From the IMG/VR virus record IMGVR_UViG_2706794687_000005: a stretch of DNA of 4,582 bases, one strand, 5' to 3'. Origin of the DNA: a virus (Duplodnaviria > Heunggongvirae > Uroviricota > Caudoviricetes). How positions within the stretch are numbered: the stretch's first letter is position 1; every line of letters begins with the position of its first letter. The position numbers and the translations under genes were made by a program. Shown here one piece after another: positions 1 through 4,582 of the stretch. The notes under the pieces were generated by a model that had not been told where the DNA came from, did no database searches, and saw only the letters and a list, made by a program, of their open reading frames with translations.

Positions 1-1
1 G

Positions 2-88
2 GGACGGAAGTCGCTGTCGTTCTCAAAATCGGTGGAGCTGCATGACAAAGTCATCGGGCATTATCTGAACATAAAACACTATCAATAA
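2..88 (+). CDS. insB: IS1 transposase InsB, C-terminal 28 codons (5'-partial, runs off the left window edge)
   Basis: Open frame from the window edge to TAA at 86-88, which lies inside the terminal inverted repeat as in IS1. The peptide matches the recalled InsB C-terminus. Confidence 0.8.
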   Translation, partial: GRKSLSFSKSVELHDKVIGHYLNIKHYQ

Positions 89-103
89 GTTGGAGTCATT
101 ACC
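81..103. repeat. IS1 terminal inverted repeat (right end, 23 bp), inward-facing
   Basis: ATCAATAAGTTGGAGTCATTACC is the reverse complement of the canonical IS1 right inverted repeat. There is an abrupt composition change at 103/104. Confidence 0.75.
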
Positions 104-485
104 CGTTAAAACATCTGCAGATAATGACGTTGACTTGGATACAGATGGATTCAGACAACTGAGGATATCGTGCCCATCCCCTTCTGCCAGCGGTGCGATT
201 ATATTGAGAAAAGCTTCTTATGAATTCGGCAAAAGTATAGGTGTATTTGATTTTGCAAACAATGCATCACCAGCGACGATGACATTTTTGATCCCAATAT
301 ATAAAGATGATGATTTTGATTCAGATACTGTTGGTTTTACATTTGCGTTCAAGATGCCAAGAGGCCAGTTTTTTGTAGATGTAAAAGAAAACGGGAATAT
401 CAGAGCTGGAGTTAATGTTAATGGCGAGTCGGGAGTGACCTACGAAAATTGCAAATTGAATATGAAAGATATTAATGATGATTAA
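90..485 (+). CDS. Hypothetical protein, probable 3' fragment of an AT-rich gene truncated by IS1 (native sequence 104-485, about 127 codons); function unknown
   Basis: Long ORF ending at TAA 483-485, directly followed by a strong terminator. The only start upstream of residue 64 is a TTG at 90 inside the IS1 inverted repeat, with no Shine-Dalgarno. The in-frame ATGs at 279 and 354 also lack a Shine-Dalgarno. The frame is open back across the IS1 junction to a stop at 72-74. GC is about 37% against about 57% for the phage genes. The peptide is hydrophilic and Asp/Asn-rich, with no signal peptide or transmembrane segment visible. Confidence 0.45.
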   Translation: MESLPVKTSADNDVDLDTDGFRQLRISCPSPSASGAIILRKASYEFGKSIGVFDFANNASPATMTFLIPIYKDDDFDSDTVGFTFAFKMPRGQFFVDVKENGNIRAGVNVNGESGVTYENCKLNMKDINDD

Positions 486-492
486 TATATAA

Positions 493-517
493 GCCGCCAG
501 AAATTGGCGGTTTTTTT
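493..517 (+). terminator. Rho-independent terminator downstream of the AT-rich ORF
   Basis: GC-rich hairpin with stem CCGCCA(G) (494-500), loop AAA(T) and stem (T)TGGCGG (504-510), followed by a run of 7 T at 511-517, 8 nt after the stop codon. Confidence 0.7.
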
Positions 518-531
518 ATAGTGGAGACAGT

Positions 532-671
532 NNNNNNNNNNNNNNNNNNNNNNNNNNNNNNNNNNNNNNNNNNNNNNNNNNNNNNNNNNNNNNNNNNNNN
601 NNNNNNNNNNNNNNNNNNNNNNNNNNNNNNNNNNNNNNNNNNNNNNNNNNNNNNNNNNNNNNNNNNNNNNN
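532..671. other. Unresolved sequence (140 N); assembly or scaffold gap, or masked region
   Basis: Contiguous run of N. It separates the 37% GC fragment from the 55-60% GC phage block. The N-like gene frame is already open at the first resolved base after the gap. Confidence 0.95.
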
Positions 672-1887: not shown

Positions 1888-2966
1888 ATGATACCGTTTT
1901 ACTTCGGGTTTCCGGTCGCGAATGGGGCGGCTGGACATCCGTCCGTATCAGTGCGGGCATTAACCGTATTGCCCGGGATTTTAATGTTGCCATTACCACC
2001 CGCTGGCCCGGAAGCCGGGATTATCAACCCCGGATAAAAAATGGTGAGCTGGTTGAAGTGCTTATCGGGGATGAGCCTGTGCTCACCGGATATGTGGAGG
2101 CACTACCGCTTCGTTATGACGCCAGCAGCGTCAGCATGGGAATTGTCGGGCGAAGCAAAACAGCCGATCTGGTTGACTGCTCTGCTTTGCCACTCCAGCA
2201 GAGCGGAAAAAACCTGCTCAGAATAGTCAGTGAACTGGCTGCGCCATTTGGCATCACCGTTGTTGATGCTGGCGTGCCGCAGACAGCGGTGATTGATGCC
2301 CAGCCGGAACACGGCGAAACCGTTGCCGATTGTCTTAACCGGTTACTGGGGCAGGTTCAGACGCTGGCTTATGACGATGAATGCGGGCGACTGGTTCTGG
2401 GAAAACCCGGAACAGGTAAAGCGGCGACGGCGCTGGTGCTGGTGCTGGGAGAGAATATTCTTTCCTGTGACACGGAAAGAAGCATCAGAGAGCGGTTTTC
2501 TGAATATCAGGTCAGTGGGCAGCGCCCGGGCAACGACGATGATTTTGGTGAGGCCACCATTGCCGCAATACGTCAGACCATTCAGGACAGTGGCGTGACC
2601 CGTTATCGCCCTTTGTTGATTCAGCAGTCAGGCACAGCAACGACAGCAACCTGTAAGGCCCGTTGTGAATTTGAAGCGCGCCAACGGGCTGCGCTTACCC
2701 GTGAGACAACATATACGGTTCAGGGCTGGCGGCAGGGCAGTGGCGCGTTATGGCGTCCGGGGTTATCTGTCATCGTTTTCGACCCGCTGAATAATTTTGA
2801 TAATGATGAACTGGTGATCGCAGAAGTTACCTATAACCAGGACGACCGGGGCACGACGACTGAATTACGGGTTGGCCCGGCAGATGCTTATCTCCCCGAG
2901 CCTGTTACCGCCAGGAAGAAAAAAATGTTGAGGAGGATTTCTGATGAACGGGTTTTCTCTTCGTAA
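1884..2966 (+). CDS. Mu P / gp44-like baseplate hub protein (P2 gpD late-control-D family)
   Basis: 360 aa. The N-terminal pattern VLLRVSGREWGGWTSVRIS resembles the Mu P / gpD family. The start overlaps the upstream stop (ATGA at 1884-1887). Size and position match Mu gene P. Confidence 0.7.
   Translation: MNDTVLLRVSGREWGGWTSVRISAGINRIARDFNVAITTRWPGSRDYQPRIKNGELVEVLIGDEPVLTGYVEALPLRYDASSVSMGIVGRSKTADLVDCSALPLQQSGKNLLRIVSELAAPFGITVVDAGVPQTAVIDAQPEHGETVADCLNRLLGQVQTLAYDDECGRLVLGKPGTGKAATALVLVLGENILSCDTERSIRERFSEYQVSGQRPGNDDDFGEATIAAIRQTIQDSGVTRYRPLLIQQSGTATTATCKARCEFEARQRAALTRETTYTVQGWRQGSGALWRPGLSVIVFDPLNNFDNDELVIAEVTYNQDDRGTTTELRVGPADAYLPEPVTARKKKMLRRISDERVFSS
2931..2936 (+). promoter_or_regulatory. 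Shine-Dalgarno (AGGAGG) for the gp45-like gene
   Basis: AGGAGG lies 7 nt upstream of ATG 2944, inside the 3' end of the preceding gene. Confidence 0.6.
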
Positions 2967-3477
2967 TCTGATTTCCCGGGCTGTCATCACGGCGGTGGAT
3001 TCCGCCAGAAAGTGTCAGTCTGTAGGGTTGAAAATGATAGCCGGAGATCAGAAACAACACGTTGAGCACCTTGAACCTTATGGTTTTACATCTGCCGCAC
3101 AGAACGGTGCTGAGGGCGTTGCTTTATTTCCGGCGGGCGATCGTTCTCATGGTGTGGTTGTGGTCGTGGCTGACAGACGTTACCGGCTGAAAGGACTGAA
3201 ACGTGGGGAAGTGGCGCTTTATGACGATCTGGGACAGTCCGTTGTCCTGACCCGTTCCGGTATTGTGGTGGACGGGGCCGGGAAGGCCATAATTTTTAAA
3301 AACGCGCCTAAAGCGCGCTTTGAAATGCCAGTCGAATCCACCGCCGATATTACTGACAATTGCGACAGTGGCGGACTCAGCATGCAGCAAATGCGGCAGG
3401 CCTACAATGCCCACAAACATACCGAAAATGGTGATGGTGGCGGGATCACTGACACGCCGGATCAACCGATGGGCTGA
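2944..3477 (+). CDS. Mu gp45-like baseplate central spike protein (phage baseplate assembly protein V family)
   Basis: 177 aa with a strong Shine-Dalgarno, overlapping the 3' end of the upstream gene by 23 nt. It has a Gly-rich C-terminus (ENGDGGGITD). Size and position match Mu gp45. Confidence 0.65.
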   Translation: MNGFSLRNLISRAVITAVDSARKCQSVGLKMIAGDQKQHVEHLEPYGFTSAAQNGAEGVALFPAGDRSHGVVVVVADRRYRLKGLKRGEVALYDDLGQSVVLTRSGIVVDGAGKAIIFKNAPKARFEMPVESTADITDNCDSGGLSMQQMRQAYNAHKHTENGDGGGITDTPDQPMG

Positions 3478-3482
3478 AAATC

Positions 3483-3893
3483 ATGATGATTAATGTTAAC
3501 GGGCGACCCGTGTCGACCGGGGCTTCGATCGACCTTCTGACGCGTGCTGTGATTATTTCGCTTTTTACATGGCGGCGTGCCGGGCGTGATGATGCACCAC
3601 GGATATTTGGATGGTGGGGGGATACCTGGCCTGCGGTTCAGAATGATCGCACGGGGTCGCGTTTGTATCTGTTGCGACGCAGCAAGCTGACAAATAAAAC
3701 CCCGCAGCTTGCCAGAGATTATGTCCGTGAGGCGCTGGCGTGGATGGTGGAGGATGGTGTTGCTTCCCGTCTTGATATTAACGCTGTCCGGACCGGGACA
3801 GACTCGCTGGCACTTGCCATTACCATTTACCAGCGTGACGGCAATATTCACAACATTATTTTTGATGATATCTGGAGTGAACTGAATGGCTGA
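3483..3893 (+). CDS. Mu gp46-like baseplate protein (phage GP46 family)
   Basis: 136 aa, starting 5 nt after the upstream stop. Size and position between the spike and the J-like gene match Mu gp46. Confidence 0.65.
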   Translation: MMINVNGRPVSTGASIDLLTRAVIISLFTWRRAGRDDAPRIFGWWGDTWPAVQNDRTGSRLYLLRRSKLTNKTPQLARDYVREALAWMVEDGVASRLDINAVRTGTDSLALAITIYQRDGNIHNIIFDDIWSELNG

Positions 3894-4560
3894 CAGTCAG
3901 TTTTATCGCCCCGGCCTCCCGCAACTTATTTCTATGATCCGGAGCGATTTATTAACCCGCTTTGAGCAGGATACGCTGCTTCGTCGTATGGATGCGGAAG
4001 TGTATGCCCGTGTACAGGCTGCAGCCGTACACACGTTGTACGGGTATATCGATTATCTTGCCAGAAATCTGTTACCGGACGTGTGTGATGAAGACTGGCT
4101 GTACCGGCACGCCAGAATCAAACGCTGCCCGCGAAAAGAAGCGGTGGCAGCCCGGGGATTTGTGCGCTGGGATGGCGTAGAGGGGACGCCGGTATTGCCA
4201 GCGGGAACGCAGATCCAGCGTGATAATCAGGTGACCTTTACCACGACGGCGACGGTGACCGCAGCCGATGGTCTTCTCCGGGTGCCTGTTGTGGCAGACG
4301 AACCGGGATCGGCGGGGAATACGGATGATGGTATTGCCATGCAACTGGGAACACCCGTCAGTGGTCTGCCGTCCACAGGGTACGCTGACACCATTACAGA
4401 CGGTGAAGATATTGAAAATCTGGAAATATGGCGTGCCCGCGTTATGGAACGTTATTACTACATTCCACAGGGGGGCGCAGGTAATGACTCCAACTTATTG
4501 ATAGTGTTTTATGTTCAGATAATGCCCGATGACTTTGTCATGCAGCTCCACCGATTTTGA
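3886..4560 (+). pseudogene. Mu gp47-like / baseplate J-like protein, 3'-truncated by IS1 at 4479/4480; the last 27 codons and the stop are IS1-encoded
   Basis: ATG 3886 is preceded by GGAG at 3874-3877 and overlaps the upstream stop by 8 nt. Native coding sequence is 3886-4479 (198 codons, against roughly 350 expected for Mu gp47-like proteins). The frame then reads GNDSNLLIVFYVQIMPDDFVMQLHRF* through the IS1 inverted repeat. Confidence 0.7.
4480..4502. repeat. IS1 terminal inverted repeat (right end, 23 bp), inward-facing
   Basis: GGTAATGACTCCAACTTATTGAT is the canonical IS1 right inverted repeat as I recall it. Confidence 0.75.
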
Positions 4561-4581
4561 GAACGACAGCGACTTCCGTCC
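4495..4581 (-). CDS. insB: IS1 transposase InsB, C-terminal 28 codons (5'-partial, runs off the right window edge)
   Basis: Mirror image of 2-88; encodes the same recalled InsB C-terminal peptide on the minus strand. Confidence 0.8.
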   Translation of the reverse strand, partial: GRKSLSFSKSVELHDKVIGHYLNIKHYQ

Positions 4582-4582
4582 C

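What the first reader, a model, noticed from the sequence alone, without database searches (positions are those of the whole stretch)
1..4582. Segment bracketed by two inward-facing IS1 ends in inverted orientation
Positions 1-103 and 4480-4582 are exact reverse complements and match the insB-proximal end of IS1. The 4376-bp interior is therefore flanked by inverted IS1 copies, or by IS1-collapsed contig ends. Inverted IS1 pairs can mobilise intervening DNA as a composite transposon, as established for Tn1681, and allow RecA-dependent inversion. The interior orientation relative to the chromosome cannot be determined from this window. Both boundaries falling exactly 103 bp into IS1 looks like short-read contig termination in a repeat, so intact flanking copies are inferred, not seen.
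Basis: partly seen in the sequence, partly recalled or inferred. Interest (0 to 1): 0.55.

Follow-up and report, generated by a model that had tools for sequence, protein, structure and literature searches.

The report
Two IS1 insertions in Shigella prophage remnant
The window is an ordinary short-read contig from Shigella sonnei: a 4.4-kb piece of a decayed phiP27-like prophage tail module lying between two separately inserted, oppositely oriented IS1 elements, with no sign that the piece has moved or flipped as a unit.

Summary
Positions 1-103 and 4480-4582 are exact reverse complements and equal the last 103 bases (666-768) of IS1.

Closed Shigella sonnei chromosomes, including 53G, carry the same segment between two complete 768-bp IS1 copies. 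The copies are inverted and their insB ends face inward. The window's known interior bases are identical to one of these genomes.

Each IS1 has its own 9-bp target duplication, CGTTAAAAC on the left and GGGGGCGCA on the right. An IS-free E. coli relative has each 9-mer once. Removing both IS1 copies and one duplicate of each 9-mer in silico restores one unbroken 10.2-kb alignment at 99.2% identity. These are therefore two independent simple insertions, not a composite transposon that arrived as a unit.

All 10 distinct long contexts examined have the ancestral orientation. No copy of the segment was found on plasmids, and neither junction occurs in 5,426 complete E. coli genomes.

The cargo is only phage tail and baseplate genes, 96.9% identical to Stx2e phage phiP27. 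One of them, baseplate J, is cut by the right IS1.

Most public contigs carrying the right junction are 2-5 kb, which shows the ends are repeat-collapsed contig ends. The feature is real and already known, and interest is low.

The parts
1..103 (+). Last 103 bases (positions 666-768, insB-proximal end including the right terminal inverted repeat) of the left IS1 copy. The contig ends inside the repeat.
   Evidence: 100% match to annotated IS1. (equals IS1-L 666-768 in L002). (full 768-bp copy in L002-L011).
104..112 (.). Inner copy of the 9-bp target-site duplication CGTTAAAAC made by the left IS1.
   Evidence: the same 9-mer lies immediately outside IS1-L in all 10 S. sonnei loci. It is present once in the uninterrupted L001.
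104..485 (+). 3' part (about codons 35-160, plus stop) of a low-GC 160-aa gene of unknown function (phrog_5586), cut off from its signal-peptide/lipobox-like N-terminus by IS1.
   Evidence: WP_000594909.1 in L001 11296-11778. (phrog_5586, E 1e-88). (no Pfam). (GC 37.6% against 54.6%). (N-terminus VIKPFLMTVAILTSCC...).
491..520 (+). Terminator-like GC-rich hairpin followed by a T-run, downstream of the low-GC gene.
   Evidence: 10-pair stem at 491-513, then TTTTATAGTG.
532..671 (.). Run of 140 N. It stands in for 176 real bases: the first 58 codons of the DNA-circularization (Mu gpN-like) gene.
   Evidence: the 176 bp are identical in all 11 related loci and start at the gene's ATG.
672..1887 (+). 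Remainder of the DNA-circularization / baseplate hub gene (Mu gpN-like). Its start is hidden under the N-run at 532.
   Evidence: annotation in L001. (PF07157). (phrog_184).
1884..2966 (+). Mu gpP-like baseplate hub gene. It contains an in-frame GCTGGT hexamer repeat (2432-2449) and an A8->A7 frameshift (2919-2925) that rewrites the last residues.
   Evidence: four GpP-like domains. (repeat number 2/3/4 among genomes; A7 against A8 in L001 and phiP27).
2944..3477 (+). Mu gp45-like baseplate assembly protein V gene.
   Evidence: PF06890..
3483..3893 (+). GP46-family baseplate wedge gene.
   Evidence: PF07409. (phrog_180).
3886..4479 (+). First 198 codons of the baseplate J/gp47 gene, cut by the right IS1. 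The open frame runs on into IS1 to a stop at 4560, giving a 224-aa chimeric ORF annotated in S. sonnei Ss046 and 53G.
   Evidence: ORF. (exact protein in closed genomes; the C-terminal Baseplate_J_C piece lies beyond the IS1). (named in S. sonnei Ss046).
4471..4479 (.). Inner copy of the 9-bp target-site duplication GGGGGCGCA made by the right IS1.
   Evidence: the same 9-mer lies immediately outside IS1-R in the S. sonnei loci. It is present once in L001.
4480..4582 (-). Last 103 bases (insB-proximal end) of the right IS1 copy, in the opposite orientation. The contig ends inside the repeat.

Best explanation
The window is a complete short-read contig (or small scaffold) from Shigella sonnei. 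It holds the unique DNA between two full-length IS1 elements that inserted separately into a defective phiP27-like prophage next to the tmRNA gene ssrA. One insertion hit a small low-GC accessory gene just after the tape-measure gene. The other hit the baseplate J gene, in the opposite orientation. Each insertion made its own 9-bp target duplication and knocked out the gene it hit. The two IS1 copies are identical to each other and to many other copies in the genome, so a short-read assembler cannot read through them and stops a fixed distance (103 bases) into each. This produces the perfect terminal inverted repeat.

Shown: the identity of the ends, the complete flanking copies, the two duplications, the collinear flanks, and the restoration by in-silico excision.

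Inferred: that this particular isolate has the same outer structure as the closed genomes, and that 103 reflects the assembler's k-mer or overlap length.
For: - Exact 103-nt inverted repeat, 100% IS1, equal to IS1 666-768.
- The chimeric baseplate-J::IS1 protein is found exactly in 226 collection blocks. Of these, 186 have only 2-5 kb carrier contigs and 20 have contigs over 1 Mb.
- Ten long contexts, including HE616528.1 (S. sonnei 53G, per PMC5447701), show this order: tape measure, IS1 (+), DNA-circularization/gpP/gp45/gp46/baseplate-J N-part, IS1 (-), baseplate-J C-part, gp48, fibres, ssrA.
- The two IS1 copies are 768 bp with 0-1 mismatches between them in eight loci. The other two loci have a 1-bp length difference that shifts the comparison.
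- The duplications are CGTTAAAAC and GGGGGCGCA, each flanking its own IS1 and each single-copy in the IS-free relative L001.
- Excising both IS1 and one copy of each duplication from L002 gives one 10,162-bp alignment to L001 at 99.2% and restores both junction 30-mers exactly.
- The window's known interior bases have 0 mismatches and 0 gaps against L002.
- The interior is 96.9% identical to phage phiP27 over 3,808 nt.
- IS1 is the most abundant expanded IS in Shigella, and IS insertions cause half of S. sonnei pseudogenes (PMC7373316).
Against: The window itself shows neither the rest of either IS1 nor the outer flanks, so the outer structure of this isolate is inferred from identical closed genomes. 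The 140-N run does not match the real 176 bp, so the window is not a plain uninterrupted contig. The assembler and its k-mer are unknown. Only 26 long contigs were read, with 10 distinct contexts shown, so rare variants could be missed.
Confidence: 0.95

Rival explanations
1. The segment plus its two IS1 copies is a Tn1681-like composite transposon that transposed into this site, or is still transposing, as one unit.
For: The architecture is permissive. There are two intact, near-identical IS1 copies in inverted orientation around a 4.4-kb segment. Tn1681 is described as flanked by inverted IS1 repeats (PMC7554612).
Against: - The outer flanks of the unit carry different 9-mers (CGTTAAAAC and GGGGGCGCA). 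Each is instead duplicated around a single IS1.
- The DNA outside continues the same prophage, and excision in silico restores it.
- No high-identity copy exists on any of 72,556 plasmids.
- Neither junction occurs in 5,426 complete E. coli genomes.
- All 10 contexts show the same locus around the two IS1 copies; one (L007) differs only further downstream.
- The cargo is only broken phage baseplate genes with no selectable function.
Confidence: 0.02
2. The segment is an invertible cassette that flips by homologous (RecA-dependent) recombination between the inverted IS1 copies, so both orientations coexist in populations.
For: Two 768-bp inverted repeats that are identical in most genomes and 4.4 kb apart are a valid substrate. 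IS-mediated inversions are frequent in Shigella (PMC8072062).
Against: All 10 distinct long contexts have the ancestral orientation, with each duplication pair still around its own IS1. An inversion would split the pairs. Flipping would have no obvious effect, because the genes are already broken. Short junction sequences cannot detect it, so low-frequency flipping is not excluded.
Confidence: 0.07
3. The terminal inverted repeat is a foldback or chimeric assembly artefact and the ends are not really joined to IS1.
For: The perfect symmetry of the ends and the internal N-run show that the sequence has been through assembly and scaffolding.
Against: Both junctions are reproduced base for base in independent closed chromosomes of several S. 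sonnei strains. The right junction also occurs in 230 contigs of the protein collection. The arm boundaries coincide exactly with the true IS1 terminus and with 9-bp duplications.
Confidence: 0.01

Closest known systems
IS1 simple insertions in Shigella sonnei chromosomes (IS1 expansion described by Hawkey et al. 2020, PMC7373316)
   Same: 768-bp IS1 with insA/insB', a 9-bp target duplication and gene disruption. The same two insertions are present and annotated in the published genomes of S. sonnei 53G and Ss046.
   Different: Nothing of substance. The window is simply the stretch between two such insertions that happen to be 4.4 kb apart and inverted.
Tn1681 (IS1-flanked heat-stable enterotoxin transposon) and other IS1 composite transposons such as Tn9
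   Same: Two IS1 copies bracket a few kb of DNA. They are inverted, as in Tn1681.
   Different: There is no duplication around the whole unit, no second location and no selectable cargo. Each IS1 has its own duplication, and the flanks are collinear with the uninterrupted prophage. It looks like a composite transposon, but nothing shows that it behaves as one.
Stx2e-converting phage phiP27 (NC_003356), tail/baseplate module L48-L52
   Same: 96.9% nucleotide identity over window 672-4479, with the same gene order (DNA circularization, baseplate hub, gp45-like, gp46-like, baseplate J).
   Different: - The S. sonnei copy is a remnant whose head genes are replaced by an IS3-family element.
- It carries an extra low-GC gene after the tape-measure gene.
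- It has two IS1 insertions, an A8->A7 frameshift in the hub gene and a variable hexamer repeat.
- It sits at ssrA.

Membership tests
IS1 (IS1 family insertion sequence) | Terminal sequence identical or near-identical to the IS1 ends (about 23-bp imperfect terminal inverted repeats GGTGATGCTGCCAACTTACTGAT / GGTAATGACTCCAACTTATTGAT) | tested here: met
   Window 1-103 is 100% identical to annotated IS1A/IS1B. Both termini were read in the full copies in L002-L011.
IS1 (IS1 family insertion sequence) | Full element of 768 bp encoding InsA and the InsB' frame with the A6C slippery site | tested here: met
   This is not visible in the window, which holds only 103 bp per end. It is met in the closed S. 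sonnei genomes at the same junctions: 768 bp, with PF03811/PF12759 and PF03400 ORFs, and the sequence and frames were read.
IS1 (IS1 family insertion sequence) | 9-bp direct target-site duplication around each element | tested here: met
   CGTTAAAAC around IS1-L and GGGGGCGCA around IS1-R. Each is single-copy in the IS-free L001.
IS1 composite transposon (Tn1681/Tn9 type) | Two IS1 copies bracketing the cargo | tested here: met
   Complete inverted copies lie on both sides in 10 long contexts.
IS1 composite transposon (Tn1681/Tn9 type) | One target-site duplication flanking the whole unit (outer ends), showing that it inserted as a unit | tested here: not met
   The outer 9-mers differ (CGTTAAAAC against GGGGGCGCA) and each matches the inner side of its own IS1. 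Excision of the two IS1 copies alone restores the prophage.
IS1 composite transposon (Tn1681/Tn9 type) | The same unit found in more than one genomic or plasmid context | tested here: not met
   The locus around the two IS1 copies is the same in all 10 contexts; one (L007) differs only further downstream. There is no high-identity plasmid copy. Neither junction occurs in 5,426 E. coli genomes.
IS1 composite transposon (Tn1681/Tn9 type) | Experimentally observed transposition of the unit | not testable with these tools
   This needs a mating-out or transposition assay.
IS-bounded invertible segment | Both orientations observed among isolates or reads | tested here: not met
   Ten of 10 distinct long contexts are in the ancestral orientation, with the duplication pairs unsplit. 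Sampling is limited and no read-level data were available.
phiP27-like (Mu-type baseplate) prophage tail module | Gene content and order DNA_circ_N / GpP-like / Mu gp45 / GP46 / Baseplate_J with high identity to phiP27 | tested here: met
   Pfam and PHROG hits. 96.9% identity to phiP27 over 3,808 nt. Same gene order in the phiP27 annotation.

The most novel reading that the evidence does not exclude
The two identical inverted IS1 copies might make this 4.4-kb baseplate block a live recombination or transposition substrate in S. sonnei. It could flip at low frequency, or occasionally be mobilised as an IS1 composite element. In that case the locus would be a natural reporter of IS1-mediated rearrangement rates in a clonal pathogen. 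Nothing seen here supports this, but short-read and consensus assemblies cannot exclude rare events.
Probability: 0.04. Interest if true: 0.25.

Novelty: already known. Interest (0 to 1): 0.07.

Why it matters
It matters little biologically. It is one more example of IS1 expansion breaking prophage genes in Shigella sonnei, and it is already present in published reference genomes.

It has some practical value. It is a clean worked example of how repeat-bounded short-read contigs mimic composite transposons, and of how target-site duplications tell 'two independent insertions' apart from 'one mobile unit'. The two junctions are absent from 5,426 complete E. coli genomes and present in S. sonnei lineages II (53G) and III (Ss046), so they could serve as lineage markers.

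Tried and rejected
- An exact-pattern scan of the species-representative genome collection with the left junction found nothing. I took this to mean that S. sonnei is not held there as a separate representative, so the source record was not recovered.
- The Rfam scan of the window gave no family at gathering score.
- The plasmid search with the interior gave only short matches of 74-81% identity to unrelated phage GP46/gpV genes, and no IS1-flanked copy.
- The low-GC gene disrupted by IS1-L had no hit in Pfam, PADLOC or PDB sequences, so its function stays unknown.
- The promoter scan of 1-531 found no sigma-70-like site, so I dropped the idea of an IS1-end outward promoter driving the interior.
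- I considered detecting inversion from junction sequences. I rejected this because recombination inside IS1 leaves all four IS1/flank junctions unchanged, so only reads or contigs spanning a whole IS1 are informative.
- I considered whether the N-run is a length-preserving mask. It is not, because 140 N stand for 176 bp.
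Full report
**1. The observation**

The window has an exact 103-nt inverted repeat at its two ends, 1-103 and 4480-4582, with 4376 nt between the arms. The arm is 100% identical to sequences annotated as IS1A/IS1B transposase elements at 71,705 places in 4,963 of 5,426 complete E. coli genomes. It equals positions 666-768 of complete 768-bp IS1 copies, so it is the insB-proximal end. The arms stop exactly at the IS1 terminus...GTCATTACC at 103, and GGTAATGAC... from 4480.

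**2. What the interior is**

- The stretch 672-4479 encodes the rest of a DNA-circularization (Mu gpN-like) protein, a gpP-like baseplate hub, a gp45-like protein, a GP46-family protein and the first 198 codons of a baseplate J protein.
- It is 96.9% identical over its whole length to the tail module of Stx2e phage phiP27 (annotation).
- It is 98.8% identical to a prophage in E. coli FDAARGOS_944 that has no IS1 at either site. This locus, L001, is the IS-free comparator.
- The stretch 104-485 is the 3' three-quarters of a low-GC 160-aa gene of unknown function, phrog_5586. It is followed by a terminator-like hairpin.

**3. What lies beyond the ends**

The open frame of the truncated baseplate J gene runs into IS1 and gives a 224-aa chimeric ORF (3886-4560). 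Its exact sequence is on record in 226 blocks of the public assembly collection.

- In 186 of those blocks the longest carrier contig is only 2-5 kb. In 20 blocks it exceeds 1 Mb.
- The protein is named in S. sonnei Ss046 (Q3YYR0).
- Truncated versions of 212-221 aa come from contigs of 4,500-4,662 bp. This is the same repeat-bounded contig cut at different depths by different assemblies.
- Ten distinct long contexts were retrieved (L002-L011), including HE616528.1. That accession is S. sonnei 53G according to PMC5447701.
- All ten show the same order: IS3-family element, tail sheath, tube, assembly protein, tape measure, complete IS1 (+), the window's interior, complete IS1 (-), baseplate J C-terminal part, gp48-like, fibre genes.
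- Most of the contexts then continue into smpB. A tmRNA gene lies between the prophage end and smpB in L005.
- The window's known bases have 0 mismatches and 0 gaps against L002.

**4. How the structure arose**

- In all ten loci the left IS1 is flanked on both sides by CGTTAAAAC and the right IS1 by GGGGGCGCA. In one locus, L004, a one-base assembly difference inside IS1 shifts the fixed-length readout.
- The IS-free relative L001 has each 9-mer once, at the corresponding positions.
- The two IS1 copies are 768 bp and differ from each other by 0-1 bases in eight loci. The other two have a 1-bp length difference, probably long-read error.
- insA, the insB' frame and the A6C slippery site are intact.
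- Removing both IS1 copies and one copy of each 9-mer from L002 gives a single 10,162-bp alignment to L001 at 99.2% identity. Both junction 30-mers are restored exactly.

These are therefore two independent simple IS1 insertions, each with the 9-bp duplication that is standard for IS1 (established knowledge of the family). A composite transposon that had inserted as a unit would carry one shared duplication at its outer ends and would interrupt unrelated DNA. Neither is the case. If the segment had been inverted by recombination between the IS1 copies, the duplication pairs would be split. They are intact in all ten contexts.

**5. Spread**

Neither junction is present in any of 5,426 complete E. 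coli genomes. The best places cover only the non-IS1 two-thirds of each junction query. No plasmid in PLSDB carries the interior at high identity. The right junction occurs in 53G (lineage II) and Ss046 (lineage III), so the insertions are probably old within S. sonnei. I did not measure their frequency across lineages.

Published work shows IS1 is the most abundant expanded IS in Shigella. It also shows that IS insertions account for half of S. sonnei pseudogenes (PMC7373316) and that IS-linked inversions are common in Shigella (PMC8072062).

**6. Why exactly 103 bases**

This part is inference. A graph assembler carries a unique path into a repeat for one k-mer (or overlap) length and then stops. 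Both sides enter the same end of identical IS1 copies, so both ends are cut at the same depth. The different contig lengths seen for other assemblies fit this. The assembler used here is unknown.

**7. Comparison with known systems**

The arrangement looks like Tn1681, which is described as flanked by inverted IS1 repeats (PMC7554612). It fails the tests that would make it a member:

- there is no duplication around the unit;
- there is no second location;
- there is no selectable cargo.

In principle IS1 transposase could act on the two outer ends, and RecA could flip the segment. There is no evidence that either has happened.

**8. Verdict**

The feature is real but ordinary and already present in published genomes. 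The more interesting interpretation, a composite transposon or invertible segment, is not supported.

Noticed in passing
window 532-671: A run of 140 N replaces 176 real bases that are identical in all 11 related loci. The run begins exactly at the ATG of the DNA-circularization gene. The length mismatch suggests an estimated scaffold gap or a mask that does not preserve length. The hidden sequence shows nothing unusual apart from a Ser/Leu/Pro-rich N-terminus.
   Followed up: partly
window 2432-2449: An in-frame GCTGGT hexamer repeat (Leu-Val) in the gpP-like baseplate hub gene varies in copy number. There are 2 copies in L001, L005 (53G) and L007, 3 in the window and L002, and 4 in L003, L004, L006 and L008-L011. 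phiP27 has an imperfect 2-copy version. It is a small VNTR inside a dead prophage gene.
   Followed up: partly
window 2919-2925: The poly-A run is A7 here and in the S. sonnei loci, but A8 in phiP27 and in E. coli FDAARGOS_944. The frameshift replaces the hub protein's last residues (NVEEDF*) with MLRRISDERVFSS*, and the ORF then overlaps the next gene by 23 nt. This is a further sign of decay.
   Followed up: partly
window ~3586: A 3-bp (GGA) deletion in the GP46-family gene relative to L001.
   Followed up: no
window 104-485; L001 11296-11778: A low-GC (37.6% against 54.6%) 160-aa gene sits between the tape-measure and DNA-circularization genes. It is absent from phiP27 and present in only 11 of 5,426 complete E. 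coli genomes. It belongs to phrog_5586 (unknown function) and has no Pfam, PADLOC or PDB hit. Its N-terminus looks like a lipoprotein signal (…AILTSCC…), and it has its own terminator-like hairpin. It looks like a prophage 'moron'. IS1-L separates the signal peptide from the rest.
   Followed up: partly
L002-L011 1-1010 and ~16000-17200; L005 16090-16452: In closed S. sonnei genomes the prophage is only a tail-module remnant. An IS3-family element abuts the tail sheath gene and the head genes are missing. In L005 the fibre end lies next to the tmRNA gene ssrA and smpB. One genome (L007, CP044151.1) has a different right-hand neighbourhood, with an integrase and other phage genes, which suggests a further rearrangement.
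   Followed up: no
L001 20671-22312: The IS-free relative of this prophage in 'E. coli' FDAARGOS_944 carries a frameshifted ipaHe effector gene at its end and several ISEc60 copies. That strain is therefore probably an EIEC/Shigella-like lineage.
   Followed up: no
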